A stretch of 64,000 bases of DNA from Elusimicrobiota bacterium (GTDB taxonomy: Bacteria > Elusimicrobiota > Elusimicrobia > UBA1565), in contig JBDRPD010000001.1 in NCBI GenBank assembly GCA_043827405.1, positions 489-64,488 on the forward strand, given 5' to 3'. Both the position numbers and the translations under genes were made by a program. Each line of letters opens with the position of its first letter. Position 1 is the first letter of the stretch. Shown here piece after piece: positions 45,392 through 61,082 of the stretch. The notes under the pieces were generated by a model. That model did no database searches and was not told the DNA's origin. It saw only the letters and a program-made list of their open reading frames with translations.

Positions 45392-45392
45392 G

Positions 45393-48313: not shown

Positions 48314-48335
48314 GGCCGTCTAATACTCCTTTTTC

Positions 48336-48364
48336 AGTATAGACCCGGCCCCTGGACCCGTCAA
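48336..48364 (-). promoter_or_regulatory. Sigma70-type promoter for 46883..48313
   Basis: TTGACG-N17-TATACT followed by AAGGAG. Confidence 0.8.
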
Positions 48365-48380
48365 GGGCCTTCCTCAAAGG

Positions 48381-48458
48381 CCTAATATTTTTTAGGCCGA
48401 TTAACCAGGTTATTAAGGCTTTTTGACCCATGCAGAAAAGCGGCAGGGCGGCTAGAAT
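48381..48458 (+). promoter_or_regulatory. Conserved promoter cassette, copy A
   Basis: CCTAA-TATTTT-TTAGG-N26-TTGACCCATGC-N19-TAGAAT-N8-ATG. Confidence 0.85.
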
Positions 48459-48466
48459 CAAGGTAC

Positions 48467-51400
48467 ATGAACTTGCGCTGGCCGCCAGCTCCGCCCGGAC
48501 TGCTTCGGAAGTGCCTCGCTTCCGCCGTCGCCGCCTCCCTGCTGGTAACCCAGCAGGGATTTTTCTTTTATGAGGCGATGGCCGCGCAGTTCGTCGCGCC
48601 GAAGGTCGGCGCGGCCGGCATGGGAACCGGCAATGCCGCGGCCGGCGCCGGCGCCGCCGCCAAGGTGCCCGGCATCCGGCTTGATAATTTCGGCCTGAAT
48701 CTCTCGGGAGTCAATGCCGCCTCGGTGCTGCCGGCGAATACCGCGATCAACTCTGTCGCGCCCCAGCTCTCATCCGTCTTGTCGAGCCCGCATGCTCAAA
48801 CCGTCACCGCGGAAGCGCCCGGTTTGCCGGCCGGCGTGAAGCAGGTCGCGGTCACGCCGAGCAAGGATATTGAACCGGCGAAAACCGCGGTCTCGCTGCG
48901 CGCGGGACTCTCCCAGCTCGGAAGCGCCCTGGTCAAGCCGGCGCGCGGCAAGCGCTCCGGGATTCTTGGACGATTCTTCGACCAGGGGAAAAAGCATGAC
49001 GGCTCCCCCGCTCCGCTCGGGGTCGGCGGTGCCGCGCGCCGGATGACGGGCCTCAGGCCCGGCGCGGACTTTAGCGTCGATCATTACCAGCGGCTAAAAG
49101 AACTCAAGCAGGTCCTGGGCGAAGGAACGCCCGAGGGTGCGGGCTGGATCCGCGCCTTCCGCTTCCGCGACCCGCAAAACGGCTGGCGCACCGCGCGCTC
49201 CGCCGGGCTGGAGGGCTTTTTCTTCACCAAGATCGAGCATGAGCAGACCTGGGGCGGGCTGATCTCGTCCGGGCAGCTCGGAGACTACTTCAACTATCTC
49301 GACGCTTTGCTGACGCCGGTCGCCTGGACGGCGGACATTCGCCGCGAGCTGGCGGCGCTGCGCGACGACGCGTCCGTGCCGCTGGTGGAGAAGAACGATC
49401 GCCTCAACAAGCTCCTTATCCGTACCTTAGATAGGCTGCGGGCGGAGCTCAAGGAGCTCGATAAGGCGCAGTGGGGGCGCAGCGCTCATACCTACGCCAT
49501 TTTCTCGCGCGCCTACAACCGTTTGCGGCCCGGGAAGAATTTCTTCGATTCCCTCGACGATGAGGAACTGGCGCGCATCCGCGAGGAGGTCCAGGTCGAC
49601 CAGCTGTGGCTGCTCGACATCTTCGAGATCGGCGACGTCAAGCGCTGGGGCACCGGCGGCGGCTCGCCCTACGCCATCAAGGGGTACCGGAAGATAAAGG
49701 AAGAGCTGGGCGGCGCGGAGGCTTTCGGCCGCTTCGTGCAGCGCGCGCATGCGCTGGGCTTCAAGGTCCGCACCGACTTTATCCCGAACCATACCTCGCT
49801 TGACAGCGAGCTGGCGCAGCGGCACCCCGAGGCCTTTATTCATCTCCTGCCGCCCCAGCATCTGTCCGATGACGAGATCTGGGCGCAGACGCCGCGCGAG
49901 GCGCAGGGGAACCGTCATCCCAACTTTTACCTGATCAAGACGCGAAGCTACCCGGGACGGGAGGGAATCGAGACCAAGGTTCTGATCCACCATCCGGTGT
50001 CCGACTTCGGGCTGTGGATCGACATGGGACAGATCGACTACAGCCAGAAGACCGCGCGCGCCTGGTTCATCGAGCAGGCCATGCACCTTTTCGGCGACAA
50101 GGGGGTCGACTCCATCCGGCGCGACATGGCCTACTACGTCATTAACGAGAACTACTACGACCGCTGGCTGAATATCCTGGAGGGAGAAAAGAACGGCGCC
50201 GGGGGCTGGGTGCGCGAAGCGCTGGAGCGCACGATCCGCGAGTTCCGCGAGCGCCGCGCGGCGCTCAACGGCGCCGAGGTGCTCGAGGAATTGACCGATA
50301 CGGTGAAGCGCCGCTACCCGTCGGCGGTCATGGACGATGAGGTCTATGCCTTCTTCACCGGCATGAGCCGCCTGGGGGCCGACGGCATCTACGGCAAGAA
50401 CACGCAGGACGCGGAGATGGGGCAGTTCGGCCTCTTCGACGCCCTGAAGAGCTTCAACGCGGGCGCCATCCGCCGGGCCCTGCGCAACAACTTCTTCCGC
50501 TTCTGGCAGAAAGGCGGCGCCAGCACGGTGAACTTTGTCGGCAACCACGACGAGGCGAATCCCGTTGATGTTTTCGGGGTGCGCTTGCGGGCGGCGGCCG
50601 CCATGGCGCTCTTGGGCGGGCCGATTTTGACCTATAACGGCTTCGAGCTCGGCACCGGCCAGCGCGAGATGGTGGGCGACCTGCCGAACTCGGTCGACCG
50701 CAACAAGGCCATCCCGTTCGATGTGCCGGTGATGATTCGCTGGGAGACCGTCAACCGGGAGAACCGGCTCTTTATCCGGGATCTGCTGCGGGCGCGCCGG
50801 CGCAATATCGGCTTGTTTGAGAACGGCGCGGCGTCCGTGCTCGAGCCCTATCAAGACACCCCGATCGTGGCCTGGTCGGCGAGCCGCCGCGAGGCCGGCC
50901 GGCAGGAGACCCTGCTCGTCGCCGGGAACTTTAATCATGATTGGGCCTGGGGGCACTTCAAGTTCAGCGCGCCGATCCTCGGCGAGTTCGGCGCCTTCCG
51001 GCCGCGCGCCGACCGGAACTACATCCTGCGCGACGCCGTGCACCGGGGCGAAGACGGCCGGCCGCTGACCTTCGAACGCACCGGCAAAGAGCTGCAGGAA
51101 CAGGGGCTCTTCGTGCACCTGGCTCCCGGCGACGCGCATATCTTCGAGGTCGAAGAGCTCGATCCGAGCGCTCCGGCGACCGGGCCGCCTGCCCGCTCGG
51201 TCATCAGCCGCCTGCGCGACGCCGCCGTCAGCGGCATCGAAGAGCCGCTGGCCTTCAAGTTTACCGGCATCCGCGAGGAGCTCTGGGGACCGCACCATGA
51301 AGCGAGGAAGCCGCAGACCTGGGATGCCCTGACCAAATGGCTCACCGACTCGGCCATCCTCGCCTTCCTGCCGCTGCAGGTGCCGCAGATCATCAAGAAC

Positions 51401-52258
51401 TTCCTGCTGATCTCCGCCGGAACGCTGGCGCCGATCTCGATTCTTCCGTGGATGGGCTATACGACGGGAATTCTCGGCAATATGCTGCTGCTCTCCTATT
51501 TCGTCTCCAAGAAAGAGGCGGGGGCCGCCCGGGTGCAGGCGGTCGGCGTAATCACCAGCGGCATCGTGCTGGCGCAGATATTCTACGCCGGCTTCATGCC
51601 GGCATTCGCTTTTTGGGGCATCGCGGCGATGATGGCGGGCGGGCTGACGCTGAACCTGCTGAAGTACCTGGGCGTCTTCAACGGCAATATCTGGAAGGCG
51701 TGGACCATGATCAGCGGACTGACCGGGCTGGGAGTGCTGCCCACCGTGTTATGGTCGACCTTCATGCCGCAGATGTCGGTTTGGCCGGCGGTGGTGACCC
51801 TGGCGGGAGGACTCATCTTCCTCCTGCTGCAGCGGCTCGGCAAGCTTCCCAAGGGACTGGAGAACACCTGGTCCAAGCTCTCGGCCTGGACGGCGACCAT
51901 GCTCTTTATGTTCGGCCCCATCGCCCAGCTGGTCAGCAACTTCGCCAATCCCGCCAATATCGCGGGGCTCTCGCTGCTCACCCTCATGCTGGCGACCGCG
52001 GGCAATGCCTTGATGCTGCCCCGCGCGATCCTGACCAAGGACCGCATCTGGCTCACCGGGAGCTTGTGGGCGGTGGCGATGGGCGGCTGGGCGGTGATGC
52101 TCAGCATGCTGCTTTACGGCGCCGTCTCGCCGCTGTTCTTCGCGGGTTTTTCCGTCATTCTGCCGGTCTACCTGGCCTTCATTATCCGCCAAGCCATGAA
52201 GCATCACGGGGCGACTTTCCGCGAGCTCCTGCGCTCGCTGGTTAAAGGCGGCGCCTAA
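48467..52258 (+). CDS. Fusion protein: conserved leader, unknown helical domain, GH13 alpha-amylase-family domain, MEX1-like (chloroplast maltose exporter) membrane domain
   Basis: GH13 regions GSPYAI, FIPNHTS, DSIRRDMA, DDEVY, FVGNHDE; C-terminal ~310 aa with LQVPQII.N, PWMG..TGILGN.LLLSYF, WTAT.LFM, NP.NI.GLS, GN.LMLPRA, WLTGSLWA matching plant MEX1 as recalled. Confidence 0.88.
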   Translation: MNLRWPPAPPGLLRKCLASAVAASLLVTQQGFFFYEAMAAQFVAPKVGAAGMGTGNAAAGAGAAAKVPGIRLDNFGLNLSGVNAASVLPANTAINSVAPQLSSVLSSPHAQTVTAEAPGLPAGVKQVAVTPSKDIEPAKTAVSLRAGLSQLGSALVKPARGKRSGILGRFFDQGKKHDGSPAPLGVGGAARRMTGLRPGADFSVDHYQRLKELKQVLGEGTPEGAGWIRAFRFRDPQNGWRTARSAGLEGFFFTKIEHEQTWGGLISSGQLGDYFNYLDALLTPVAWTADIRRELAALRDDASVPLVEKNDRLNKLLIRTLDRLRAELKELDKAQWGRSAHTYAIFSRAYNRLRPGKNFFDSLDDEELARIREEVQVDQLWLLDIFEIGDVKRWGTGGGSPYAIKGYRKIKEELGGAEAFGRFVQRAHALGFKVRTDFIPNHTSLDSELAQRHPEAFIHLLPPQHLSDDEIWAQTPREAQGNRHPNFYLIKTRSYPGREGIETKVLIHHPVSDFGLWIDMGQIDYSQKTARAWFIEQAMHLFGDKGVDSIRRDMAYYVINENYYDRWLNILEGEKNGAGGWVREALERTIREFRERRAALNGAEVLEELTDTVKRRYPSAVMDDEVYAFFTGMSRLGADGIYGKNTQDAEMGQFGLFDALKSFNAGAIRRALRNNFFRFWQKGGASTVNFVGNHDEANPVDVFGVRLRAAAAMALLGGPILTYNGFELGTGQREMVGDLPNSVDRNKAIPFDVPVMIRWETVNRENRLFIRDLLRARRRNIGLFENGAASVLEPYQDTPIVAWSASRREAGRQETLLVAGNFNHDWAWGHFKFSAPILGEFGAFRPRADRNYILRDAVHRGEDGRPLTFERTGKELQEQGLFVHLAPGDAHIFEVEELDPSAPATGPPARSVISRLRDAAVSGIEEPLAFKFTGIREELWGPHHEARKPQTWDALTKWLTDSAILAFLPLQVPQIIKNFLLISAGTLAPISILPWMGYTTGILGNMLLLSYFVSKKEAGAARVQAVGVITSGIVLAQIFYAGFMPAFAFWGIAAMMAGGLTLNLLKYLGVFNGNIWKAWTMISGLTGLGVLPTVLWSTFMPQMSVWPAVVTLAGGLIFLLLQRLGKLPKGLENTWSKLSAWTATMLFMFGPIAQLVSNFANPANIAGLSLLTLMLATAGNALMLPRAILTKDRIWLTGSLWAVAMGGWAVMLSMLLYGAVSPLFFAGFSVILPVYLAFIIRQAMKHHGATFRELLRSLVKGGA

Positions 52259-52312
52259 AGCGAACACCGTCCGGCCGGCGTCGTCCTTTGTATATAATCA
52301 CTGAGCGCAACC

Positions 52313-53323
52313 ATGGAACACGCACTCACCCGCTTTATTGAAAGCATTTCCCTGATCCACCCGATTCTTGTATTCGGTCTGATCGCGGTCTGCTTGGGCC
52401 TCGTCGGCAAGAGCGCCGACATCCTGGTCGATGAGGCGGTGCTGCTGGCGCGGCGCTCCGGGGTGTCCACCGTTATCATCGGCGCGACCGTGGTCAGCCT
52501 CGGCACCACCATGCCGGAAGCCGCGATCTCGGTATTCGCCGCCATCCAGGGCAAGCCGGGTCTGGCGCTGGGCAACGCCGTCGGCTCGGTGATCTGCGAT
52601 ACCGGCCTGATCCTGGGTTTGGCCTGCATGCTGGGCGAGCTGCCGCTGGACCGCAGAACGGTGAACCGCCAGGGCTGGATCCAGCTGGGAGCGGGGATTC
52701 TCCTGGTGGCCGTGACCCTGGCCTTCGGCCGCCGCTTGCCGCGGGGCGCCGGCTTCGTATTTCTCGGTCTTCTTGCCGTCTATATCTGGCTGTCGGTCCG
52801 CTGGGGCAAGTCGGCCGGCTGCGAAGAGGGGGGAGAGGTGCCGCAGGAGTCGGCGGGATATATCCTGCTCAAACTCGCGGGTGCGATCACTCTCCTTATT
52901 ATCGGCTCACGGATCCTGATCCCCGCGGTCATGCATGTGGCGCTGCTCTTCGGCGTGCCCGAGGATATCATCGCCGCGACCTTGGTCGCCTTCGGCACTT
53001 CGCTCCCCGAGCTGATTACGGCGGTGACCGCCGTGCGCAAGGGCGAGGGGGGGCTGGCGGTCGGCAATATCATCGGCGCCGATATCCTGAACATCCTGTT
53101 CGTCTCGGGTGCGGCCTGCGCGGTGACGGCGGGCGGCCTGGCGGTGCCGGACACTTTCTTCAAGCTGCACTTCCCCGCGATGATCGCCATCCTGGTTATC
53201 TTCCGTCTGGGAATATTCTTCTCCGGCAAGCAGCTCAAGCGGCCTTTCGGCTTTCTGCTGCTCGCCTCCTATGCCGTGTATCTGATTCTGCAGTACACCC
53301 TGCTCGGCCGCGTCGGCGGCTGA
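52313..53323 (+). CDS. Ca2+/Na+ antiporter, YrbG/CaCA family
   Basis: Alpha repeats SLGTTMPE and AFGTSLPE, GNAVGS and GNIIGAD. Confidence 0.93.
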   Translation: MEHALTRFIESISLIHPILVFGLIAVCLGLVGKSADILVDEAVLLARRSGVSTVIIGATVVSLGTTMPEAAISVFAAIQGKPGLALGNAVGSVICDTGLILGLACMLGELPLDRRTVNRQGWIQLGAGILLVAVTLAFGRRLPRGAGFVFLGLLAVYIWLSVRWGKSAGCEEGGEVPQESAGYILLKLAGAITLLIIGSRILIPAVMHVALLFGVPEDIIAATLVAFGTSLPELITAVTAVRKGEGGLAVGNIIGADILNILFVSGAACAVTAGGLAVPDTFFKLHFPAMIAILVIFRLGIFFSGKQLKRPFGFLLLASYAVYLILQYTLLGRVGG

Positions 53324-53339
53324 GCGCCCTGTCCTTGGT

Positions 53340-53417
53340 CCTAATAAAATTTGGGTCCAATTCCTGTGAAATGCGGTCTGGTTGACCCATGCGTATTCGC
53401 TGTTTTCCCAATAAGAT
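53340..53417 (+). promoter_or_regulatory. Conserved promoter cassette, copy B
   Basis: CCTAA-TAAAAT-TTGGG-N26-TTGACCCATGC-N19-TAAGAT-N7-ATG. Confidence 0.85.
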
Positions 53418-53424
53418 CATAGAG

Positions 53425-54723
53425 ATGAGCGTTTTCCTTAGAAAGCTTCTGGCGTCCGTCATCACCGCTTCCCTGCTGGTGGCCCAGCAGGGTTTTTCTT
53501 TTAGCGCTCAGGCGGCGATCAAGGTGAACCTCGCGGCGACGAGCGGCGGCTCCAGCGCGGCGGCGGCGGCGGGCGGCGTTATCGGCGCCAATAGCGCGCT
53601 CAACAATCTTAAACTTTCCGCCCAGGGCTTGAACCTTAAGACCGGCGTCCTGCCGTCGGTGAATATGCCGAATGTCTCGGTGAACGGCGCCGTCGGTAAT
53701 GTCGAAACCGTGCTGCCGCTGTCGGTGGCGGCGCCGACTATGGAAGCCAAGAAAGCCCAGGGAGTCGGGACCGTCTCCGCCGCTGAGGTTCCGGCCGCCG
53801 CGCCGGCGCTGGCAAGGAACGGGCACCAGAAAACGGTGATGCGCCGGGCCGCTCGCATCCAGCAGGCGCTGGGCAAAAAGACTGCCACCGAACTGCATCA
53901 GCTTTTCGATAATGCGCGCCAGGCCGGCGCGGAAAACTTCGTCGGGGCGGAAGAAAGCGGCGCGAAAAAGCCGGCGGTGAAGCTTAAGCCGGCCGCGGAA
54001 GCCCCGGTCAAGAAACGCCGGCTCATCGAGTTCCGTCCCGAGGTCATCAAGGGCATCAAGGAAGCTTTCCGCAGTTCGTGGACCCGGCCCAACAAGCAGG
54101 ACTATACCTACCTGGTCACCAAGACTTTCGGCGTCAACCTGGCGGTGCGGCTCGGCTTTGTCATCCAGGGCGTCATGGGCGGCACTTTGCCGCTGCTGCG
54201 GGCCATTCTGTCGACCACCTGGTATCAGGCGCAGGACGCGGTCTTCACCGTTTTCGGGCAGACCTATATGAAGTTCCTCAACAAGATGACGGGTCTGCTG
54301 CGCATCCATAACGCCGAGGTCGGCGACTTCCTCTTCATCTATACCCAGCTCGTCTTCTTCGAATTCCTTAACCGGCTCGTGCTCGGTCCCTTGGGCGCCA
54401 ATCCGCTGGTCTATAGCTGGGCCGGCATAGGGCTGATTTTCCTCAATATCATACAGGGCATGATCGCCGGCGGTCCGCTCATCCCGGCCATCAACAAGAT
54501 GCACAAGGCGGGCGTGATCAAGCACTCCACCATGATGCATCTCTACCAGATATCCAGCCTGACCATGCATCTGGGGCTGTTCGCGACCTTCGGCTTTCAG
54601 TCGATCTTTACCTTGCTCAGCACCATCCTCATGTTCATATCGTGGGGGCTTTACCTCTACTTTACGGCCTTCTACAAGCCGCCTCCCGGCGCCGTATTGC
54701 CCGACGAGTCCAACGGCCTCTGA
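53425..54723 (+). CDS. Conserved leader plus unknown polytopic membrane domain (domain X)
   Basis: Start ATG 53425; leader LASVITASLLVAQQGF...GLNLKTGVLPSV...LHQLFD; ~200-aa hydrophobic domain shared with 59790..60995. Confidence 0.85.
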   Translation: MSVFLRKLLASVITASLLVAQQGFSFSAQAAIKVNLAATSGGSSAAAAAGGVIGANSALNNLKLSAQGLNLKTGVLPSVNMPNVSVNGAVGNVETVLPLSVAAPTMEAKKAQGVGTVSAAEVPAAAPALARNGHQKTVMRRAARIQQALGKKTATELHQLFDNARQAGAENFVGAEESGAKKPAVKLKPAAEAPVKKRRLIEFRPEVIKGIKEAFRSSWTRPNKQDYTYLVTKTFGVNLAVRLGFVIQGVMGGTLPLLRAILSTTWYQAQDAVFTVFGQTYMKFLNKMTGLLRIHNAEVGDFLFIYTQLVFFEFLNRLVLGPLGANPLVYSWAGIGLIFLNIIQGMIAGGPLIPAINKMHKAGVIKHSTMMHLYQISSLTMHLGLFATFGFQSIFTLLSTILMFISWGLYLYFTAFYKPPPGAVLPDESNGL

Positions 54724-54739
54724 CCTCCCGTCCGTTGGG

Positions 54740-54817
54740 CCTATTATTTTTTGGGTCCTATTTCATCCGAATCAGACCTTGTTGACCCATGCGGGCCCGG
54801 CGCTTCGCGGTTAATAT
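54740..54817 (+). promoter_or_regulatory. Conserved promoter cassette, copy C
   Basis: CCTAT-TATTTT-TTGGG-N26-TTGACCCATGC-N19-TAATAT-N8-ATG. Confidence 0.85.
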
Positions 54818-54825
54818 TAATAGTG

Positions 54826-57375
54826 ATGATACGCTTTAAGAAGATTCTCGCCTCGCTTCTCTCAGCCTCCCTGCTGATCGCCCAGCAGGGCTTTTTATTC
54901 CGGGCGGACGCGGCGGTCAAGGTCAATGTCGCGGGAACCGCGAGCGGCGGCGGCGCGGCCGCGGCGGCCGGGGGCTCTCTCGGCGTCAACAATGCATCGC
55001 TTAACAGCCTCCAGCTTTCCAATCAGGGCCTGAACCTCAAGACCGGCGTCCTGCCTTCGGTCGGCAACATTCAGGCGGAGATAAATCCGCAGTCGTTAAT
55101 AAAGTCGGTCGCCCTTCCCAAGGCGGTCGCCGCGCAGGGGATCGCCGGCAAAGTCAAAGCCGCTGAATCGATTGCGCAGCCGGGAGCGGAGACCAAGGAA
55201 GCGAAGGTTTCTCCCTCCGCGCAGGCCCGGACGCTGTCGCGCGAGCTCGCAAAGAGCTCTAAGAAGGAGCGCGGCGGCCTGCTCAGCAAGTTTTTCGACA
55301 GCTCCAAGCACGGCCTGTCGCATAAGGATGCGGCGGTCGAGCCGGGCGAGGGCGATTTCGGCGGCGGCCGCAGCGGGCTCAATAAGAAGCCCGGCCTCAA
55401 AGAGCTGCGCACGCTGCTCGTTGACGGTACGGTCGCCGAGGACGGTCCGCTCCAGCCTTTCGGCTTCCGGACGCCGGATGGGACTTATGTCGCGGCGCCG
55501 ACGGCGGGTCTGGAATCCTTCTTTGAAGCCAAGCAGACCCATGAATGGCGCCATGGTGAGGCGAACTCGTCCGGACAGGTCAACGATTACTTCAACTATC
55601 TCGACGCGCTTCTCGCGCCGCTGGCCTGGACGGTAGAGATTCGACGCGATCTGAGGACCCTCAAGCTTTTGGCGATGGATGACCTGGCGAAAAACCGCGC
55701 GCTTAACGAGCTTCTTATAAAGACCGTCGGCCGGATTCAGAGCATGGAGGTCAAGGAAATTCTGGCCGGCTCCAAGGCGCCGAACTCTTTGGAAGAGGCG
55801 ACGCTGGATATCGATCCGAACCGGGAGTACTACCCCTCGCCGGAAGATTGGCGCGACGAGGTCATCTACTTCTCCATGATCGACCGCTTTTCACGGAGCA
55901 AGAAGGGGATGCCGCGCGGCGACCCTAAAGACGGCGGCTCCCGTCATGGCGGCGACATCCGGGGCATCATCGACCGCCTGGACTACATCAAGGAGTCCGG
56001 CGTTACTTCAATCCTTTTCACCCCGGTTACCATGGGATTGCCCAAGGCCTATCATGGCTACGCTCCCCTGCATCTCCTCGAAGTCGATCCCCATCTGGGC
56101 ACCATGGAGGATTACAAGGAGATGGTCCGCGAGGCGCATAAGCGCGGCATCCGGGTTATTATGGACCTGGTCCTCAACCATACCGGGCCGGTTTTCGAGT
56201 ACAAAGACGGCAGCCGCTGGTCGGGTGTCGATAAGCCGCGCAAAGAGATCGACGATTGGACCTTTGACCTGAAGCCCGTTGAGCTTAAGGACGCGGGACG
56301 CTTCTCGCGGCGGGGCGTCATCGACGACTGGCAGCATCCGGACCAGGTGACCAAGGGCGACTTCCCGCCCAACTACCGGCACTTCCGGACCGACGATCCC
56401 AAGACGCGCAAGATGCTGACCCAGGTGGCGCTGTGGTGGCTCAAAGAAACCGATGTCGACGGTTTCCGCCTCGATGCCATTCGCCATGTCGATCCCTCTT
56501 TCTGGCCGGAGTTCAACCGCGCGGTGCGGCAATACGCCGCCAAGCTCGGCAAGAAGAACTTCTTCCTGCTGGGCGAGAACTCGACCGGGGTGGACTGGGA
56601 GCTGCTGCAGTATATGGGGAAGGACCAGTTTGACAGCACCTACAACTATCCGTCTTACCGCCGAGACAATAAGGCGCTGCACGGCGCCGCGCCGACGAAA
56701 GCGCTCGAAGACAGCATTAAGGCCAACCTCTCGGTTCTCGGCGGCTTTGCCGGGTACTTATTACGCTTCATCGATCTGCACGACACCTACCGCTTCCTGC
56801 GCTCGCGCGAGCCCATCAACATCCTCAAGCTGGGGATGACCTACCTGATGTTCTCGCTCGGCATCCCGATCGTCTACGCCGGCACGGAGCAGGCCATGCG
56901 GCAGTACGTCGACAGCCTGGACCCGGAGGGGCCGCACCAGCCGGCCGACCCGCAGAACCGTGAGGACATGTTCCCCGAGGGGCAGTTTAAGTCCGAGAGC
57001 TCCAAGGGCGATATGTTTAATGCGGAATCGGACACTTTTAAGTTCCTGCGCCGGCTCGCGGACCTGCGGCAAAAGCATCCGGCCCTGCGCCGCGGCGAAC
57101 ACCAACCGCGCTGGGTCGATCCTTACGGCCCCGGCATCTATGCATTCAGCCGCATCTACGGTGACGAGGAGGTCCTGGTGGTTATGAACACCTCCGGCGT
57201 CGAGCGCTCGGCCTCCATGTACGTTGACGCCGAGCGCAGCCCGGGCGGCACCCGGTTCGCCGACGAGCTCGACCGCGCCTACACGGGCGTCGCCAAGACC
57301 CACCCCGAAGGCGGCTCCATGCTCGACGTCACCGTCCCCGCCAACGGCGTGCGCGTCCTCGTCCGCCGCCGCTAA
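54826..57375 (+). CDS. Conserved leader, unknown helical domain and GH13 alpha-amylase/CGTase-like hydrolase
   Basis: Start ATG 54826; DWRDEVIYF..IDRF, YHGY, DLVLNHTG, DGFRLDAIRH, GENST, FIDLHDT. Confidence 0.92.
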   Translation: MIRFKKILASLLSASLLIAQQGFLFRADAAVKVNVAGTASGGGAAAAAGGSLGVNNASLNSLQLSNQGLNLKTGVLPSVGNIQAEINPQSLIKSVALPKAVAAQGIAGKVKAAESIAQPGAETKEAKVSPSAQARTLSRELAKSSKKERGGLLSKFFDSSKHGLSHKDAAVEPGEGDFGGGRSGLNKKPGLKELRTLLVDGTVAEDGPLQPFGFRTPDGTYVAAPTAGLESFFEAKQTHEWRHGEANSSGQVNDYFNYLDALLAPLAWTVEIRRDLRTLKLLAMDDLAKNRALNELLIKTVGRIQSMEVKEILAGSKAPNSLEEATLDIDPNREYYPSPEDWRDEVIYFSMIDRFSRSKKGMPRGDPKDGGSRHGGDIRGIIDRLDYIKESGVTSILFTPVTMGLPKAYHGYAPLHLLEVDPHLGTMEDYKEMVREAHKRGIRVIMDLVLNHTGPVFEYKDGSRWSGVDKPRKEIDDWTFDLKPVELKDAGRFSRRGVIDDWQHPDQVTKGDFPPNYRHFRTDDPKTRKMLTQVALWWLKETDVDGFRLDAIRHVDPSFWPEFNRAVRQYAAKLGKKNFFLLGENSTGVDWELLQYMGKDQFDSTYNYPSYRRDNKALHGAAPTKALEDSIKANLSVLGGFAGYLLRFIDLHDTYRFLRSREPINILKLGMTYLMFSLGIPIVYAGTEQAMRQYVDSLDPEGPHQPADPQNREDMFPEGQFKSESSKGDMFNAESDTFKFLRRLADLRQKHPALRRGEHQPRWVDPYGPGIYAFSRIYGDEEVLVVMNTSGVERSASMYVDAERSPGGTRFADELDRAYTGVAKTHPEGGSMLDVTVPANGVRVLVRRR

Positions 57376-59781
57376 ATGAGCCCGCAGTCCTGGCTCGGAA
57401 AATCCATTTACTTCATTCTGACCGACCGCTTCTACAACGGCGACAAGTCCAATGACGACTTCGGCCAAGGTGAGTACGATCCCCAGAGCGACGATTGCTT
57501 CCAGGGCGGCGATCTTAATGGCATAACGCGCAAGCTCCCGCATATCAGGAAGCTGGGCTTCGACGCGATCTGGCTCACTCCGCCGGTGCATAACCAGTGG
57601 ATCAACCCCTATATCGCGACCCGGGGCTTCCACGGCTACTGGGCCTACGATTTTACCCGGGTCGATCCCCATTTCGGCACCTTGGAGGATTACAAGAGGC
57701 TGGTGCGCGAGGCGCATAAGCTCGGCCTCAAGGTGATCCAGGATATCGTCGTTAACCACACGGGCAACTTCTTTACGGTCGACGACAAAGGCTACGATCC
57801 CCGGAAGCCGGAAAAGAACTGGCGCGGCGTGATCAAGAAGGGCGCCAAGGCGCCGCGTGATCCGGTCTTCAAGCTGAACAACCCGAACAATCCCGCGCAC
57901 AAGAAGGCGGGCGTCTACAACTTCACGCCCAATATCTCCGATTTCAAGAGCCGTGAGCAGACCTTGACCTACTCCATGGGCGACCTCGACGACATCAACC
58001 TGCGCAGCCCGCTGGCCGCCAACCGGATGAAGGAGATCTACCGCTACTGGATCGAGGAAGTGGGGATCGACGGCTACCGGGTCGATACCGTCTACTACAC
58101 GCCGGAGGATTTCTACGAGGGCTTTCTCTACGATGATTCGCCGCAGCACCCCGGCATCAAGCGGGGGAACAAGGACTTCTTCGTCTTCGGCGAGGTGTGG
58201 TCCTACGACTATAAGGCGATAAATAAATATCTCAAAGACGGACGGACAAAGCGGCTGGACTCCGCGATCGACCTGCCGCTCAACGAGGCCCTGACCCAGG
58301 TATTCTATCGCAAGACCCCGACCGAGGACCTGCGCAAAGCGCTGTCCGCCCGGCGGCACAACCGGAACCTGTGGGTCAATTTCCTCGACAACCACGACGT
58401 CGAACGGATGAACAGCCGCGCCAACTGGCGCAGCGTCCGGCAGTCCTTGGTCGCGCTGTTTACGCTGCCCGGCATCCCCTGCGTTTACTACGGCACCGAA
58501 GCCGGCTTCAAGGCGGCGCGGCAGAATATGTTCAAGGACAGCTGCTACGATGAGAAATCGAAGTATTGCCGGTTTCTGCGCCAACTGCTTCGCTTGCGCA
58601 AACAGCATCCGGCCCTGAGCCGCGGCGCCTGCTCGGTCGAGCGGGCCTCGTTCTCCTGCGGGGTGCTGTCCTATGCGGTCGAGCATGCCGGAGAGCGCTA
58701 CCTGATGGTCTTTAATACGGCGCCGGACCGCATGTTCTATGAGCTGGAGGAGGGGCGGTCTTATCAGGTGCTGCTGTCATCCGAGAAGGATCGAGCGGCC
58801 GGCGGTGCAATGATATTAGCGCCGGAGTCGTACTACGTGCTCAAGGCCGGGGGACGCAAGGAGAAAGCCGGGAAGGGCCGGCCGAATATCCGCATGCGTC
58901 CGCTGCGTCCGGGAACATACTCCGACGACATCGGCATCCGCTTCCGGCTCGACAAGCCCGGGAAGATCAGCGGCCTGTATCTGCTCTCTAACGACAACTT
59001 CGATAAGAGGGTCAAGATCGCACAGCCCCGGGACGGCAAGCTTAGTCTACGCGCCGCCGAGCTTGATAACGGCAAGCATCGTCTGCGCCTGCTGGCGAAG
59101 ACCGGGACCCAAAGCTTCAGTGCGTCCGCCAGCTCGGAGATCACGGTGCGCAACGCTTACCGGCGGCTGACGGATTTTACGCTGCCGGCGGGAAATAAGG
59201 GCGGCCTGGACTGCGAGCTTCATATTCCCGCGGACCCGAGCTATGACCGGCAGTGCTCAATCGAACGCGTCAGCGTCTATTCGAGCGGCAGGGATTTGCG
59301 GCTGCAGCTGAAGATGGCCAATGTCACCGATGATTGGAACCCGCCGCACGGCTACGATCACGTCTACTTTAATGTGCTCTTCGACTTCCCCGGGGAAAAG
59401 GGCCGGTGCTTTTTCCCGAAGATGAACTACCGGTGCCGGGATTTCGCGTTCAATGCCGGCTTTCTGCTTTACGGCTGGGGCGCCCAGTCCTACGGGACGA
59501 AAGGTGCGTCGGAGGACGCCTACGGCGAGCCGCTGTTCGGGGAGATCGTGCAGGCCGCTGATTTAAAGACGCAAACGATCACTTTTACGTTTTCCAGCAA
59601 GTTCTTCGATTCCCTGAAGACGCTCGACGGGGTAAAGATCTTCCTCTCCACCTGGGACGGCTATCTCGCGGATTTCCGCAAGATCGCGAACCGGAAATCG
59701 GACTGGGAATTCTATACCCTCAAAAGCGGGCGCATCGAGGATGTTCCCCGCATCTTCGATTATGCGATAATCCGTATCTAG
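57376..59781 (+). CDS. GH13 alpha-amylase-family hydrolase with C-terminal glucodextranase DOMON-like domain; no signal peptide
   Basis: IYFILTDRF, FHGYW, DIVVNHTG, DGYRVDT, FGEVW, FLDNHD; C-terminal WNPPHGYDHVYFNVLFD. Confidence 0.92.
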   Translation: MSPQSWLGKSIYFILTDRFYNGDKSNDDFGQGEYDPQSDDCFQGGDLNGITRKLPHIRKLGFDAIWLTPPVHNQWINPYIATRGFHGYWAYDFTRVDPHFGTLEDYKRLVREAHKLGLKVIQDIVVNHTGNFFTVDDKGYDPRKPEKNWRGVIKKGAKAPRDPVFKLNNPNNPAHKKAGVYNFTPNISDFKSREQTLTYSMGDLDDINLRSPLAANRMKEIYRYWIEEVGIDGYRVDTVYYTPEDFYEGFLYDDSPQHPGIKRGNKDFFVFGEVWSYDYKAINKYLKDGRTKRLDSAIDLPLNEALTQVFYRKTPTEDLRKALSARRHNRNLWVNFLDNHDVERMNSRANWRSVRQSLVALFTLPGIPCVYYGTEAGFKAARQNMFKDSCYDEKSKYCRFLRQLLRLRKQHPALSRGACSVERASFSCGVLSYAVEHAGERYLMVFNTAPDRMFYELEEGRSYQVLLSSEKDRAAGGAMILAPESYYVLKAGGRKEKAGKGRPNIRMRPLRPGTYSDDIGIRFRLDKPGKISGLYLLSNDNFDKRVKIAQPRDGKLSLRAAELDNGKHRLRLLAKTGTQSFSASASSEITVRNAYRRLTDFTLPAGNKGGLDCELHIPADPSYDRQCSIERVSVYSSGRDLRLQLKMANVTDDWNPPHGYDHVYFNVLFDFPGEKGRCFFPKMNYRCRDFAFNAGFLLYGWGAQSYGTKGASEDAYGEPLFGEIVQAADLKTQTITFTFSSKFFDSLKTLDGVKIFLSTWDGYLADFRKIANRKSDWEFYTLKSGRIEDVPRIFDYAIIRI

Positions 59782-59789
59782 AGTCCCCC

Positions 59790-60995
59790 ATGCCTTTACC
59801 TGCGAACAAGGATGTGGTCGTCATCGCCCTCGACACCGCGGCGGATAAGCGTGAGTACTTTCTGTGCTCCGGCTCGGATCTCGGCGGCGGAGACGGCTTT
59901 AAGAAGGTGCGGCCCGGCACCCTCTTCGCGCCGGAGAACGACGCCTTTTTCGCGTCGTTGGCGGACGGCGGCAGGGTTCACATTATCGTCTATCCGACGC
60001 GTACCTACTCCGAAGGTTTCGGCGGCAGCATGTTCTCGGACATCGCCCCCGAGGATCGCCGGATGATTCGCAAGATAAGGGCGCGCTACGAGGATAGAAC
60101 GGACTGCTGCAAGGTTCCGCTCAGCGATACGCTGCTGTTCGAGGGGCTGGAGAAGTATTTCGCCGGCGACGAGGAGCGGGCGCGGTACCGCAGTGAGAAA
60201 AGCGCGCCGGTCGAGAAGAAGCAGGAGCGGATCAAGAGGGAGGGGAAGCGCGGCTTTTTTACGGTCGATCCGAAGTATCTCATCAACATCAAAGAAATAT
60301 TTGTCAGCTGCATGACCCGCCCCAACCGCCAGGACTATATGTGGCTGGCGACCAAGACCTTTGGGCTGAACCTGGTGGTCCGGCTCTTCTTTGTCTGCAA
60401 GGGGGTGATGAGCGGAGACCTGTCGATGGTCCGCGCCGTTCTTTCCACGACCTGGTACCAGATCCAGGACGCCGTCTTCACGGTCTTCGGCCAGACCTAT
60501 ATGAAGTTCCTTGGCAAGATGACCGGGCTTATCCGCATTCGCAACGCGCAGGTCGGGGACTTCGTCTTCGTCTACTTCCAGCTCTGCGGCTTCGAGTTCC
60601 TCAACCGTCTGCTGCTGGGCCCTCTTGGAGAGAACCCGCTCGTCTATACCGGGTTCGGCATCGGGCTCATCTTCGTCAATATCCTGCAGGGCATGCTCTC
60701 CGGCGGTCCGCTTATTCCCGCGATCAATAAGATGCGGCGGGCCGGAGTCATCAGCCACCCGGTGATGATGCATCTCTATCAGGCCTCGAGCTTGACCATG
60801 CAGTTCGGCCTGTTGGCGAGCTTCGGCTACCAGACCTTCTACGCGATACTAACCGGCGCCGTGCTGGTCTTCTCTTGGTCGAGCTACGTGATCTTCTCGA
60901 CCTTCTTCAAGGACCCGGAGTTTTCCGGCGTCACCGACCGGGAGCTGATGGCCAAGCTCGACGGTCTCGCCGCCAAGTGCTACGCCTCCTCCTGA
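59790..60995 (+). CDS. Unknown soluble N-terminal domain plus membrane domain X; no leader
   Basis: C-terminal ~200 aa align without gaps to 53425..54723. Confidence 0.85.
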   Translation: MPLPANKDVVVIALDTAADKREYFLCSGSDLGGGDGFKKVRPGTLFAPENDAFFASLADGGRVHIIVYPTRTYSEGFGGSMFSDIAPEDRRMIRKIRARYEDRTDCCKVPLSDTLLFEGLEKYFAGDEERARYRSEKSAPVEKKQERIKREGKRGFFTVDPKYLINIKEIFVSCMTRPNRQDYMWLATKTFGLNLVVRLFFVCKGVMSGDLSMVRAVLSTTWYQIQDAVFTVFGQTYMKFLGKMTGLIRIRNAQVGDFVFVYFQLCGFEFLNRLLLGPLGENPLVYTGFGIGLIFVNILQGMLSGGPLIPAINKMRRAGVISHPVMMHLYQASSLTMQFGLLASFGYQTFYAILTGAVLVFSWSSYVIFSTFFKDPEFSGVTDRELMAKLDGLAAKCYASS

Positions 60996-61018
60996 GCGCT
61001 GCTCTCTGAGCTCGCCGC

Positions 61019-61082
61019 TTCCGTCGACTGTCTTTCCTCCGCGCTGGGCAAGGTCTACGCTTCGTCAAGACAGTCGACGGAA
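61019..61082. repeat. Perfect 16-bp inverted repeat with 32-nt loop between convergent genes (terminator- or REP-like)
   Basis: ttccgtcgactgtctt ... aagacagtcgacggaa. Confidence 0.75.

What the first reader, a model, noticed from the sequence alone, without database searches (positions are those of the whole stretch)
48467..55320. Shared bipartite N-terminal leader on unrelated passengers: candidate new protein-targeting signal
Seen: three proteins begin K.LAS...ASLL..QQGF.F...A, then a Gly/Ala run, GLNL(SG/KTG)V, an Ala/Pro/Lys-rich low-complexity stretch, and end with L..[FL]FD (LGRFFD, LHQLFD, LSKFFD) after about 160-175 aa. The passengers differ: GH13-MEX1, membrane domain X and a GH13. 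This is much longer and more conserved than a Sec signal, and polytopic membrane proteins do not normally need one. Inference: a signal plus transit-like tag routing enzymes and transporters to another compartment or into a host or prey cell.
Basis: partly seen in the sequence, partly recalled or inferred. Interest (0 to 1): 0.85.

Follow-up and report, generated by a model that had tools for sequence, protein, structure and literature searches.

The report
Lineage-specific N-terminal leader on many proteins
Three neighbouring starch-enzyme and membrane-protein genes of an uncultured groundwater bacterium begin with the same long N-terminal tag, and a looser form of that tag heads more than forty very different proteins in this bacterial order, so it may be a new address label for sending proteins beyond the cell membrane.

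Summary
Genes A (48467-52258), B (53425-54723) and C (54826-57375) share a 158-172 aa leader. It has a Sec-type signal peptide, a Gly/Ala run, a GLNL..VLPSV box, a disordered linker and an L..[FL]FD box.

A profile seeded on the trio finds 43 ORFs in this 4.33 Mb genome, always at the N-terminus, against 0 in reversed or shuffled ORFs. Passengers include MFS, ABC, SDF and MscS transporters, membrane and soluble proteases, nucleases, and nucleotide-dependent enzymes (GlgA, PPK2, ClpB-like, LonB-like, RNB). Many have leaderless paralogs of standard size.

The family matched 71 of 101 genomes of the same Elusimicrobiota order and 0 of 236 elsewhere in the phylum. Neither Pfam nor NCBIfam matches the leader.

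Best reading: a new lineage-specific sorting or processing leader that acts after Sec export. The destination is unknown. N-in transporters and ATP-dependent enzymes behind a cleavable signal peptide are a topological paradox.

The trio-specific SLL..QQGF.F signature is also an intrinsic-terminator-like hairpin plus U-tract inside each coding sequence. The hairpin recurs in orthologous loci, with T-richer than background but variable tails. So part of the trio's extra conservation is probably at the nucleic-acid level.

The parts
48467..52258 (+). Gene A: leader (res 1-172), N-domain shared with C, weak GH13, and a C-terminal polytopic MEX1-like domain.
   Evidence: ORF. Pfam Alpha-amylase, 46 bits, res 374-733. 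A versus C, 31% identity over A 65-443. Atlas nearest clusters are MEX1, 0.89, a lead only.
53425..54723 (+). Gene B (start taken at M13; the ORF opens at 53389): leader (res 1-162) plus a conserved polytopic membrane domain of unknown family.
   Evidence: ORF. No Pfam or NCBIfam family. AF2: TM domain pLDDT 80-94, leader res 24-135 below 50. No PDB fold match, best E 1.4. 53% identical to the leaderless paralog B'.
54826..57375 (+). Gene C (start taken at M26; the ORF opens at TTG 54751): leader (res 1-158), N-domain shared with A, and a GH13 catalytic domain.
   Evidence: ORF. Pfam Alpha-amylase, 167 bits. The collection holds the protein from MIRFKK.
48467..48583 (+). A signal peptide (res 1-39, ends AMA).
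   Evidence: Basic n-region, hydrophobic run and AxA. Cleavage is inferred.
53425..53514 (+). B signal peptide (res 1-30, ends AQA).
   Evidence: AF2 helix with pLDDT 81-74 over the first 20 residues.
54826..54912 (+). C signal peptide (res 1-29, ends ADA).
   Evidence: AF2 helix 2-17 with pLDDT 92-78 in the model of the leader, numbered from F27 of the TTG ORF.
48692..48739 (+). A: GLNL...VLPAN box.
   Evidence: The family-wide LP-x-hydrophobic box occurs in 34 of 43 members against 210 of 1987 background ORFs.
53626..53661 (+). B: GLNLKTGVLPSV box.
55027..55062 (+). C: GLNLKTGVLPSV box.
48965..48982 (+). A: LGRFFD box.
   Evidence: Family-wide, [FW]D[GNSA] lies at res 110-230 in 24 of 42 members against 164 of 1869 background ORFs.
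53893..53910 (+). B: LHQLFD box, at the end of a predicted helix.
   Evidence: AF2 helix 154-166, block pLDDT 46-62.
55282..55299 (+). C: LSKFFD box.
48536..48569 (+). Terminator-like hairpin (10 bp stem, loop 4) with tail TTTTTCTTTT, inside the coding sequence of A (encodes SLLVTQQGFFF).
   Evidence: RNA fold -19.8 kcal/mol, z -4.72.
53471..53502 (+). Terminator-like hairpin (9 bp stem, loop 4) with tail TTTTTCTTTT, inside the coding sequence of B.
   Evidence: -17.8 kcal/mol, z -3.72.
54869..54900 (+). Terminator-like hairpin (8 bp stem, loop 6) with tail CTTTTTATTC, inside the coding sequence of C.
   Evidence: -15.0 kcal/mol, z -3.15.
48423..48458 (+). Shared upstream box TTGACCCATGC, then 19 nt, then TAGAAT. 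The ATG lies 8 nt further on.
   Evidence: Promoter function is inferred.
53382..53417 (+). The same box, then 19 nt, then TAAGAT. The ATG (M13 of the ORF) lies 7 nt further on.
54782..54817 (+). The same box, then 19 nt, then TAATAT. The ATG (M26 of the ORF) lies 8 nt further on.
57376..59781 (+). Gene D: leaderless GH13 with Glucodextran_C. It belongs to the conserved cluster.
   Evidence: Pfam, 200.8 bits. A D-type ORF sits directly upstream of a B-type ORF in 33 of 36 related loci (my count).
59790..60995 (+). Gene B': leaderless paralog of B with a soluble N-terminal domain.
   Evidence: ORF. 156 of 295 residues identical to B. The N-domain motif YPTRTYSEGMGGG..SPEDR is seen in orthologs.
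52313..53323 (+). Na_Ca_ex family membrane protein between A and B. It has no leader.
   Evidence: Pfam, 185 bits.

Best explanation
The three genes carry the local, most conserved version of a lineage-specific N-terminal leader. It is found in one order of Elusimicrobiota.

The leader is modular:
1. A Sec-type signal peptide: a basic n-region, a 13-15 residue h-region, a [SA]PG or QQG break, and then Y/F-x-A-x-A.
2. A Gly/Ala run followed by a short box, h-x-L-x-[ST]-x-LP-[ST]-V.
3. A 50-80 aa Ala/Pro/Lys-rich linker with no confidently predicted fold.
4. A short amphipathic helix ending in h-x-x-h-[FW]-D-[GNSA], usually followed by basic residues.

I infer that the signal peptide takes the N-terminus through Sec and is cut by signal peptidase I. 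I further infer that the two short boxes are read afterwards, outside the cytoplasm, by a lineage-specific partner. That partner would be a processing protease that cuts at the FD-G box, a chaperone or usher, or an outer-membrane docking site. It would sort, tether or mature the passenger. In short, this is a secondary sorting or processing leader, not just a spacer.

What is shown: the modular anatomy, its N-terminal position, its spread over at least 43 unrelated passengers per genome, its restriction to one order, and the absence of any known family match.

What is inferred: export, cleavage, the role of the boxes, and the destination.

Separately, the trio-specific SLL..QQGF.F part doubles as an intrinsic-terminator-like hairpin plus U-tract. 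It lies 44-103 nt behind each start codon. I read it as an early transcription attenuator, relieved by a closely following ribosome, common to the alpha-glucan cluster genes. That reading is also an inference.
For: Family and controls:
- The trio-only HMM finds 8 of 37,251 six-frame ORFs at E below 0.01. Iteration gives 8, 23, 36 and then 43.
- A further pass finds 47 in real ORFs against 0 in reversed and 0 in shuffled ORFs.
- All 43 matches start at residues 3-81 of stop-to-stop ORFs whose median length is 712 aa.

Signal-peptide features in the 43:
- K/R in the first 8 residues in 42.
- [PQ]G break in 33.
- AxA in 38, against 650 of 1987 background ORFs.

The two boxes:
- The LP-x-h box occurs in 34 of 43, against 210 of 1987.
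- [FW]D[GNSA] at residues 110-230 occurs in 24 of 42, against 164 of 1869. In control windows of the same proteins it occurs in 0, 5 and 5 of 42. Median position is 160.

Structure: AF2 models show a confident N-terminal helix and then no confident fold. Residues 24-135 of B score below 50. The rest of the leader-only model averages 47-67 per 10-residue block.

Minimal forms: a signal peptide, a dozen or so residues, and then h-FDG. They sit on an Endonuclease-I paralog, a GH13 paralog and C20_9414, which suggests the FD box works next to a signal peptide on classic secreted enzymes.

Other secreted-type paralogs carry plain signal peptides, so the leader is not needed for Sec export as such.

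Passengers: 29 of 39 scanned ORFs hit Pfam families. These are MFS_1 x6 (one below its curated cut-off), Peptidase_M50 x3 (one below its cut-off), Peptidase_S8 x3, Peptidase_M48 x2, ClpB-like AAA_2 x2, HD-CE x2 (one below its cut-off), and one each of ABC, Rce1-like, SDF, MscS, PPK2, Glyco_transf_5, LonB-like, RNB, Endonuclease_1, M28, Exo_endo_phos, ATP-grasp (fused to one of the MFS proteins) and BatA/VWA/DUF58. No listed best stretch starts before residue 182.

Distribution:
- Same order: 71 of 101 genomes (f1 16/16, f3 5/6, f2 49/78), with 38 matches in this genome.
- Rest of the phylum: 0 of 236 genomes.
- Among 1.84 billion representative proteins, 52 score E at or below 1e-3. Fifty of these match from residue 37 or earlier, and 12 are this genome's own.

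Conservation between genomes: leader-type B orthologs keep LL..QQG and [FY]FD (L025, L035, L036, L038). A orthologs keep LSLFFD (L028, L039).

Hairpin:
- The three sites are the three longest-stemmed of 27 terminator-like sites in 46000-62000.
- The palindrome occurs at 7 loci in the genome, and the trio have the T-richest tails (9, 9 and 7 T in 12; the next is C73 with 6).
- The tails use rare codons. TTT is 26% of Phe, TCT 4.4% of Ser and TTA 1.2% of Leu.
- The hairpin recurs 10 times in 9 related loci, with CTG..CAG changed to CTC..GAG twice.
Against: Nothing shows cleavage or export. No SignalP or DeepTMHMM was on hand, and the TM calls are crude Kyte-Doolittle windows.

Topology argues against simple export:
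- MFS proteins are N-in as a family rule (recalled).
- In 21 polytopic members, the 25 residues before the first passenger TM hold a mean of 3.4 K/R against 1.1 after it. The count is higher before the TM in 16 and lower in 4.
- B keeps the same loop charges as leaderless B'.
- So the end of the leader looks cytoplasmic-side, while its start looks exported.

GlgA, PPK2, ClpB-like, LonB-like, ATP-grasp and ABC domains need nucleotides, which the periplasm is not known to hold.

No partner gene was found. Recurrent neighbours are only two-component and cNMP-binding proteins.

The FD box is missing from 18 of 42 members by the regex. Some of these have an ILTGR-like variant, judged by eye.

The profile was built from one genome, so 'absent outside the order' may partly reflect lost sensitivity.

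For the hairpin:
- The instances in other loci were picked by a regex that demands the palindrome. Six of 9 pairs never vary, and only 3 cells show double changes.
- Tails in the other loci hold 4-10 T in 12, so a U-tract is not uniformly kept.
- LL..QQG with the preferred codons CTG and CAG is nearly palindromic by itself.
Confidence: 0.45

Rival explanations
1. An ordinary Sec signal peptide followed by a disordered periplasmic spacer or tether with no further sorting role. The similarity among more than 40 proteins would reflect common descent of an N-terminal module spread by duplication and domain shuffling. At most, the boxes would dock proteins to the wall or outer membrane.
For: - The signal-peptide features are canonical.
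- The linker is low-complexity with low pLDDT.
- C orthologs in more distant Elusimicrobia MAGs carry a plain signal peptide and an Ala/Pro-rich linker without the boxes.
- Several leader genes are adjacent or paralogous to each other: C36 3453/10307, C50 196650/198904, and the C48 pair.
Against: - Two short motifs are kept at fixed positions across unrelated passengers and across three families of the order. That implies selection on the motifs themselves.
- This reading does not explain nucleotide-dependent enzymes or N-in transporters behind an export signal.
- Plain signal peptides are used elsewhere in the genome.
Confidence: 0.22
2. The leader is not an export signal. The hydrophobic N-terminus acts as a cytoplasmic-face membrane anchor, alone or as a hairpin with the Gly/Ala run, or only as an early SRP handle. 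The rest of the leader stays in the cytoplasm and gathers a set of inner-membrane and membrane-tethered cytoplasmic proteins, for example into one membrane domain or for regulated proteolysis.
For: - It resolves the topology paradox. MFS, SDF and B-type domains keep their N-in charge bias (B versus B').
- GlgA, PPK2, ClpB-like, LonB-like, RNB and ATP-grasp passengers would have their substrates.
- K/R residues sit just behind the AxA site in many members, judged by eye. In E. coli such residues hinder Sec export (recalled).
- The Gly/Ala run reaches the Kyte-Doolittle threshold in 2 of 43.
Against: - The h-regions are short, 13-15 residues, and are followed by a helix breaker and AxA in 38 of 43. 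That is the signature of cleaved signal peptides, not anchors.
- The Gly/Ala run is not hydrophobic enough in 41 of 43.
- The set also holds classic secreted families (Endonuclease_1, Peptidase_S8, M28, Exo_endo_phos, GH13).
- Minimal SP+FDG forms sit on such enzymes.
Confidence: 0.18
3. For the trio only, the extra conservation that drew the reader's eye (K.LAS...ASLL..QQGF.F) comes from a shared 5' regulatory module at the DNA/RNA level, not from a special protein signal. The module is an upstream box, a start codon close to the -10 element, and a hairpin plus U-tract.
For: - The hairpins and T-runs lie exactly under SLL..QQGF.F.
- Rare codons make the T-run.
- Only 3 of 43 leader genes have such a site in their first 300 nt, against 2 of 129 control windows.
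- There are four exact copies of TTGACCCATGC in the genome. Three lie 44 nt before the trio's ATGs.
- The Q-to-E change goes with CTG-to-CTC in L035 and L037.
Against: - This explains about 12 codons only. It does not explain the Gly/Ala run, the GLNL..LPSV box or the FD box, which are family-wide at the protein level.
- The upstream box is not found in the related loci of other genomes. Its only match outside this genome's own loci is one site at L023:5846-5856, which one search places inside the D-type ORF.
- The U-tract is weaker in some orthologs, at 4-6 T in 12.
Confidence: 0.55

Closest known systems
Sec signal peptides cleaved by signal peptidase I (general secretory pathway; recalled knowledge)
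   Same: The first 29-39 residues have the n-h-c layout with a helix breaker and A-x-A.
   Different: About 130 further conserved residues with two motif boxes follow. The passengers include N-in polytopic transporters and nucleotide-dependent enzymes.
Signal-peptide-linked sorting motifs and extended leaders: ESPR of autotransporters and two-partner substrates, YSIRK-G/S, KxYKxGKxW, and the lipoprotein export signal of Bacteroidota (all recalled)
   Same: A lineage-restricted conserved addition to a signal peptide, shared by many otherwise unrelated proteins.
   Different: There is no sequence match. Pfam and NCBIfam gave nothing in the leader. The boxes lie behind the cleavage site and up to 170 residues downstream, not inside the signal peptide.
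Bipartite topogenic signals (signal peptide plus transit peptide) of complex plastids, and the signal peptide plus PEXEL motif of Plasmodium (recalled)
   Same: A signal peptide is followed by a second, low-complexity targeting part or short motif. The cargo includes polytopic transporters and soluble enzymes that duplicate housekeeping ones.
   Different: Those are eukaryotic systems with known translocons. Here no second membrane system, translocon or processing enzyme is known, and no homology is implied.
PE/PPE N-terminal domains with the YxxxD/E motif as type VII secretion leaders on diverse passengers, such as LipY (recalled)
   Same: A roughly 100-170 aa lineage-specific N-terminal module, partly Gly/Ala-rich, on unrelated C-terminal passengers, with a short motif ending in an acidic residue.
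   Different: PE domains are folded helical hairpins without a Sec signal peptide. Here there is a Sec-like signal peptide and no confidently predicted fold.
Intrinsic (Rho-independent) terminators and leader attenuators (recalled)
   Same: A GC-rich 8-10 bp stem, a 4-6 nt loop and a U-tract.
   Different: The element lies inside the structural gene's own signal-peptide codons, 44-103 nt behind the start, and not in a 5' UTR or a separate leader ORF. No Rfam family matches.

Membership tests
Sec / signal peptidase I signal peptide | A basic n-region, a hydrophobic h-region of about 10-16 residues, and a c-region with small residues at -3 and -1. | tested here: met
   K/R in 42 of 43, a [PQ]G break in 33 of 43, and AxA in 38 of 43 against 650 of 1987 background ORFs. 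The trio's sites are AMA, AQA and ADA. AF2 gives a confident N-terminal helix. This is pattern level only. No SignalP was available.
Sec / signal peptidase I signal peptide | Actual cleavage and translocation. | not testable with these tools
   Needs proteomics or reporter fusions.
Tat signal peptide | A twin-arginine S/T-R-R-x-F-L-K motif in the n-region. | tested here: not met
   The trio has LRK, LRK and FKK. The family mostly has RK or KK.
Lipoprotein signal peptide | A lipobox [LVI][ASTVI][GAS]C at the cleavage site. | tested here: not met
   B and C have no Cys in the signal peptide. A has only C16, at the n/h boundary. Only a minority of family members have a Cys, in PG-x-x-C-Y, which does not fit the lipobox (judged by eye).
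Type IV prepilin-like leader | G-F-T-L-I-E after a short basic leader. | tested here: not met
   Not present in any of the aligned N-termini.
Curated N-terminal secretion domains (ESPR, TPS/Haemagg_act, YSIRK and others in Pfam and NCBIfam) | A profile match in the leader. | tested here: not met
   Pfam on 42 leader-bearing proteins or ORFs (one as its first 3800 aa): no listed best stretch starts before residue 182. NCBIfam on A, B and C only: GH13-type matches from residue 330 on, and none for B.
Glycoside hydrolase family 13 (passengers of A and C) | A Pfam Alpha-amylase catalytic-domain match above the cut-off. | tested here: met
   A 46 bits, C 167 bits; the cut-off is 22. Catalytic residues were not checked.
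MEX1 maltose exporter (C-terminal domain of A) | Sequence or profile homology to MEX1. | tested here: inconclusive
   The atlas feature search has MEX1 clusters as its top four hits, at 0.88-0.89 with 200-211 of 256 features shared. The score is under 0.9, so this is a lead. The local Pfam copy gave no match and there was no PDB sequence match.
Intrinsic terminator | A GC-rich stem-loop directly followed by a U-tract on the transcribed strand. | tested here: met
   The three trio sites have 10, 9 and 8 pairs, and 9, 9 and 7 T in the next 12 nt.
Intrinsic terminator | Termination of transcription at the site. | not testable with these tools
   No RNA holder was listed, and the RNA contigs laid gave nothing usable (see Tried and rejected).

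The most novel reading that the evidence does not exclude
The leader is a bacterial bipartite topogenic signal. It sends a second, paralogous proteome across the cytoplasmic membrane and on into another ATP-containing compartment. That proteome comprises transporters, channels, intramembrane proteases, ClpB- and Lon-type machines, an RNase, a polyphosphate kinase and a glycogen toolkit (GlgA, two GH13 enzymes, a MEX1-like domain and the domain-X membrane protein). The compartment would be a metabolically active space outside the cytoplasmic membrane, or a host or prey cell. Polytopic passengers would insert from the far side, which would explain their 'inside-positive' flank facing the leader. 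The FD-G box would be the maturation site.
Probability: 0.13. Interest if true: 0.95.

Novelty: new variant of a known kind. Interest (0 to 1): 0.76.

Why it matters
If the boxes are read by a dedicated partner, this is a new protein-sorting signal. It was defined purely from sequence, and it comes with a ready list of more than 40 cargo proteins per genome and a clear phylogenetic boundary of one order. Those are the inputs needed to find the machinery by phylogenetic profiling.

The cargo list is what makes it unusual. MFS, ABC and SDF transporters and ATP- or ADP-glucose-dependent enzymes sit behind a cleavable-looking signal peptide, and each is duplicated by a leaderless housekeeping copy. 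That should not work in a textbook diderm cell.

So either the textbook reading of such N-termini fails here, or these uncultured groundwater bacteria keep or feed a second compartment.

The embedded terminator-like hairpins add a possible case of one stretch encoding both a signal peptide and a transcription attenuator.

Tried and rejected
- Neighbourhood search for a cognate machine. ORFs within 6 kb of leader genes were clustered. The only recurrent leaderless families were response regulators and histidine kinases (13 members near 10 leader genes), ABC ATPase-like ORFs (labelled by eye) and cNMP-binding proteins. I judged these too common to mean anything.
- Secretion-system markers in the own genome (98% complete). 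FHIPEP, VipB and CagE_TrbE_VirB were not found. Found were 3 Peptidase_S26, 6 Omp85 and 3 secretins above the cut-off, plus 1 below it. None could be tied to the leader.
- TLC (nucleotide transporter) lead. This genome has only weak matches, at 72 and 27.5 bits. Across the phylum, weak matches also occur in families without the leader (f5 11/18, f9 2/2). Strong matches of about 575 bits occur only in the small-genome family f14. I dropped this as a correlate.
- Fold of B's membrane domain. Foldseek against the PDB found no match at E 0.001 or better (best 1.4). PDB sequence searches gave nothing useful. The atlas found no usable feature hit for B.
- A 26-residue HMM of the FD box was too weak to search the genome. 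Its best independent E-values were near 0.01. It still pointed to further members, which I confirmed by eye.
- Rfam on 48000-56000 gave 0 matches at E 1 or better.
- The upstream box TTGACCCATGC was not found in related loci of other genomes.
- RNA evidence. No RNA holder was listed. Laying two metatranscriptome contig sets and one DNA run gave 0 and 1 stray RNA contigs, so nothing can be said on expression or 3' ends.
- Literature. Searches for Elusimicrobia with 'signal peptide' and 'N-terminal' (27 papers, 15 listed), Elusimicrobiota with periplasm and compartment, Elusimicrobia with 'sorting signal' (0 papers), and Elusimicrobia with glycogen, alpha-amylase and secreted (1 paper) turned up nothing on such a leader. 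In PMC11495043 I read the three passages that mention Elusimicrobiota. In bioRxiv 10.1101/765248 I ran a term search: 'signal peptide', 'secret' and 'N-terminal' each occur 0 times. The supplements of these papers were not seen.
- Rejected ideas: recent gene conversion between the trio's leaders, because synonymous differences run throughout; dual-topology pairing of B and B', because their loop charges are the same; and a lipobox, Tat or prepilin signal (see Membership tests).
The tools search for homologous proteins, the listing of cluster members and complex prediction were not used.

Full report
**What is in the window.** The region holds a co-oriented cluster:
- A, 48467-52258. Leader, an N-domain, a weak GH13 match of 46 bits, and a C-terminal polytopic domain.
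- A Na_Ca_ex protein, 52313-53323.
- B, ORF 53389-54723. Leader plus a membrane domain with no Pfam or NCBIfam family.
- C, ORF 54751-57375. Leader plus GH13 at 167 bits.
- D, 57376-59781. Leaderless GH13 with Glucodextran_C.
- B', 59790-60995. A leaderless paralog of B, with 156 of 295 residues identical.

The exact boxes are A AMA 37-39, GLNL..LPAN 76-91 and LGRFFD 167-172; B AQA 28-30, GLNLKTGVLPSV 68-79 and LHQLFD 157-162; and C ADA 27-29, GLNLKTGVLPSV 68-79 and LSKFFD 153-158. B is numbered from M13 and C from M26 of the ORFs. The strict motif occurs nowhere else in the genome's six frames. A and C are paralogs far beyond the leader (31% identity over A 65-443), so within the trio only B is an unrelated passenger. 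The atlas places A's C-terminal domain nearest MEX1 clusters at 0.89, which is a lead and not a test.

**Whose genome.** Thirty-six related loci found with B come almost entirely from records titled Elusimicrobia or Elusimicrobiota MAGs. By that kinship I take the window to be from this phylum. In these loci a D-type GH13 sits directly upstream of a B-type ORF in 33 of 36, by my count. Five loci show B-C-D(-B') as in the window: L025, L032, L035, L036 and L038. The B copy downstream of D has a soluble N-domain (YPTRTYSEGMGGG..SPEDR) and no signal peptide. The copy upstream of C carries the leader, with LL..QQG and [FY]FD kept (L025, L035, L036, L038). A orthologs keep LSLFFD (L028, L039). The leader and leaderless pair is therefore old and conserved.

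**The leader is a genome-wide family.**
- An HMM of the trio's leaders found 8 of 37,251 ORFs at E below 0.01. Iteration gave 8, 23, 36 and then 43.
- One further pass gave 47 hits in real ORFs, and 0 in reversed and 0 in shuffled ORFs.
- All 43 matches begin at residues 3-81 of stop-to-stop ORFs of median length 712 aa.

The shared anatomy starts with K/R in the first 8 residues (42 of 43). A short hydrophobic run follows, then a [SA]PG or QQG break (33 of 43) and A-x-A (38 of 43, against 650 of 1987 background ORFs). Next come a Gly/Ala run and an LP-x-hydrophobic box (34 of 43, against 210 of 1987). After a low-complexity stretch there is [FW]D[GNSA] at residues 110-230, in 24 of 42 against 164 of 1869 background ORFs. 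In control windows of the same proteins it occurs in 0, 5 and 5 of 42. The median position is 160.

Reading further N-termini by eye added members the HMM missed: C96_16683, C13_77654, C7_16169, C39_78578, C3_128564, C87_62657, C81_14710 and C2_10565. It also added minimal forms, with a signal peptide, a dozen or so residues and then h-FDG, on an Endonuclease-I paralog, a GH13 paralog and C20_9414.

AF2 gives a confident N-terminal helix and no confident fold for the rest. In B, residues 24-135 score below 50, and helices at 127-149 and 154-166 end in the FD box. In the leader-only model the remaining 10-residue blocks average 47-67.

**Passengers.** Pfam hit 29 of the 39 further leader ORFs:
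- Transporters and channels: MFS_1 x6 (one below the cut-off, one fused to ATP-grasp), ABC_membrane with ABC_tran, SDF and MscS.
- Membrane proteases: Peptidase_M50 x3 (one below the cut-off, one fused to S8), M48 x2 and Rce1-like.
- Soluble hydrolases: Peptidase_S8 x3, M28, Endonuclease_1, Exo_endo_phos, RNB and HD-CE x2 (one below the cut-off).
- Nucleotide-dependent enzymes: PPK2, Glyco_transf_5 (GlgA type), LonB-like AAA with Lon_C, and ClpB-like AAA_2 x2 (2239 and 2793 aa).
- A 3388 aa BatA-VWA-TPR-DUF58 fusion.
- Ten had no family, including the first 3800 aa of a 5460 aa protein.

No listed best stretch lies in the leader. Many passengers have a leaderless paralog of standard size: GlgA, PPK2, ClpB, an RNB protein, SDF and B'. 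Other secreted-type paralogs carry plain signal peptides.

**Distribution.**
- With the 34-row profile A2, 71 of 101 genomes of the same order match at E 1e-5 or better (f1 16/16, f3 5/6, f2 49/78). This genome has 38 matches and the others 1-14.
- In a phylum-wide sample, 0 of 236 genomes outside these three families match.
- Among 1.84 billion representative proteins, 52 reach E 1e-3 or better. Fifty of these match from residue 37 or earlier, and 12 are this genome's own.
- The profile comes from one genome, so the boundary may be partly a sensitivity limit.

**How it may work.** The N-terminus looks like a cleavable Sec signal. The boxes behind it are short linear motifs in a stretch with no confident fold. 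The FD box also occurs right behind plain signal peptides of classic secreted enzymes. I therefore favour a secondary sorting or processing leader that is read after Sec export (confidence 0.45).

The main difficulty is topological:
- MFS proteins are N-in (recalled).
- In 21 polytopic members the flank before the first passenger TM is the K/R-rich one, with a mean of 3.4 against 1.1. It is richer in 16 and poorer in 4 (crude Kyte-Doolittle calls).
- B has the same loop charges as leaderless B'.
- GlgA, PPK2, ClpB- and Lon-like machines, ATP-grasp and ABC domains need nucleotides.

There are three possibilities: (a) the passengers end up in a membrane and space reached from the far side, which is the novel case; (b) the N-terminus is an anchor and not an export signal; or (c) the leader is a mere tether and the odd passengers have unexpected roles. 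I could not separate these. No partner gene emerged from neighbourhoods. T3SS, T4SS and T6SS markers were not found. The genome does hold 3 signal peptidase I genes, 6 Omp85 and 3-4 secretins.

**A second layer in the trio.** The DNA under SLL..QQGF.F is a perfect 8-10 bp GC-rich palindrome followed by a T-run: 48536-48569, 53471-53502 and 54869-54900.
- These are the three longest-stemmed of 27 terminator-like sites in 46000-62000. They fold at -19.8, -17.8 and -15.0 kcal/mol, with z of -4.7, -3.7 and -3.2.
- The palindrome occurs at 7 loci in the genome, and the trio have the T-richest tails at 9, 9 and 7 T in 12. C73, the next, has 6.
- The T-runs are built from rare codons. TTT is 26% of Phe, TCT 4.4% of Ser and TTA 1.2% of Leu. 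Only 27 of 1.9 million coding 10-mers have 9 or more T.
- Only 3 of 43 leader genes have such a site in their first 300 nt, against 2 of 129 control windows.
- The hairpin recurs 10 times in 9 related loci, with tails of 4-10 T in 12.
- Across 13 instances, 99.1% of cells pair. L035 and L037 changed CTG..CAG to CTC..GAG, which turns Q into E, and L038 changed G-C to A-U.
- The instances were picked by a regex that demands the palindrome, so this covariation is thin.

Each trio gene also has TTGACCCATGC, then 19 nt, then TAnnAT, then 7-8 nt, then the ATG. There are four exact copies of the box in the genome, and three of them are these. This hints at nearly leaderless mRNAs from one regulon. 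The box is not found in related loci of other genomes.

I read the hairpin as an early attenuator that a closely following ribosome would suppress. This is an inference. No RNA data were usable (see Tried and rejected).

**Comparison and novelty.** The closest known things are signal-peptide-linked sorting motifs and extended leaders, PE-type secretion leaders, and, in form only, the bipartite signals of complex plastids or the signal peptide plus PEXEL arrangement. All of these are recalled. None matches by sequence. My literature searches found no description of this leader. I rate it a new variant of a known kind, a signal-peptide-linked sorting leader. There is a minority chance that it marks something categorically new.

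Noticed in passing
window 48536-48569, 53471-53502, 54869-54900: Intrinsic-terminator-like hairpins with U-tracts lie inside the signal-peptide codons of A, B and C. The hairpin recurs in orthologous loci, with two kinds of compensatory change and variable T-rich tails. Rfam has no match.
   Followed up: yes
window 48423-48458, 53382-53417, 54782-54817: An identical 11-base box, TTGACCCATGC, lies 19 nt before a -10-like hexamer, and the ATG follows 7-8 nt later. This suggests one regulon and nearly leaderless mRNAs. Three of the four exact copies in the genome are these.
   Followed up: partly
window 53425-54723 and 59790-60995; loci L009-L044: B and B' define a highly conserved polytopic membrane family (39-49% identity to B across the aligned MAG orthologs). 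It has no Pfam family and no PDB fold match. It sits next to GH13 genes in 33 of 36 loci. B' carries a conserved soluble N-domain (YPTRTYSEGMGGG..SPEDR).
   Followed up: partly
window 51104-52255: The C-terminal domain of A resembles the plant and algal maltose exporter MEX1 by language-model features (0.89). That would make A a GH13-MEX1-like fusion. P0027 from another genome looks, by eye, like the leader plus this domain alone.
   Followed up: partly
G000 C50:67495-68445, C32:12751-14748, C20:9414-10985: Minimal versions of the signal: a plain signal peptide, a dozen or so residues, and then h-FDG. They occur on an Endonuclease-I paralog, an A-like GH13 paralog and one further ORF.
   Followed up: partly
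G000 C13:67590-68222 and C13:69555-85393: One of three signal peptidase I genes (a 375 aa ORF) lies 1.3 kb upstream of a leader-bearing M28 peptidase. The stretch holds three leader genes (C13_69555, C13_77654, C13_81494).
   Followed up: no
G000 C22:34435-50814, C91:14841-25004, C50:198904-207282, C36:3453-10169: Several giant proteins carry the leader. One is 5460 aa with no Pfam family in its first 3800 aa. One is a 3388 aa fusion of BatA, VWA, TPR and DUF58. Two are ClpB-like proteins of 2793 and 2239 aa.
   Followed up: partly
L028:1621-5157 and L039:1674-5174: In two related MAGs the C-type GH13 lies in one long open frame behind an N-terminal membrane domain, judged by eye. The QQG-type hairpin sits near the start of that frame.
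   Followed up: no
genomes G048, G087, G140 and others (family f14, genus g50): Bona fide TLC nucleotide transporters (about 575 bits) occur only in the 0.7-1.3 Mb genomes of one Elusimicrobiota family. The window's order has only weak TLC-like matches.
   Followed up: no
window 45147-46886 and 46883-48313 (-): Upstream of A lie a TPR plus Ser/Thr kinase gene and, on the opposite strand, a 476 aa protein with an N-terminal hydrophobic segment, Gly-rich runs and no Pfam family.
   Followed up: no
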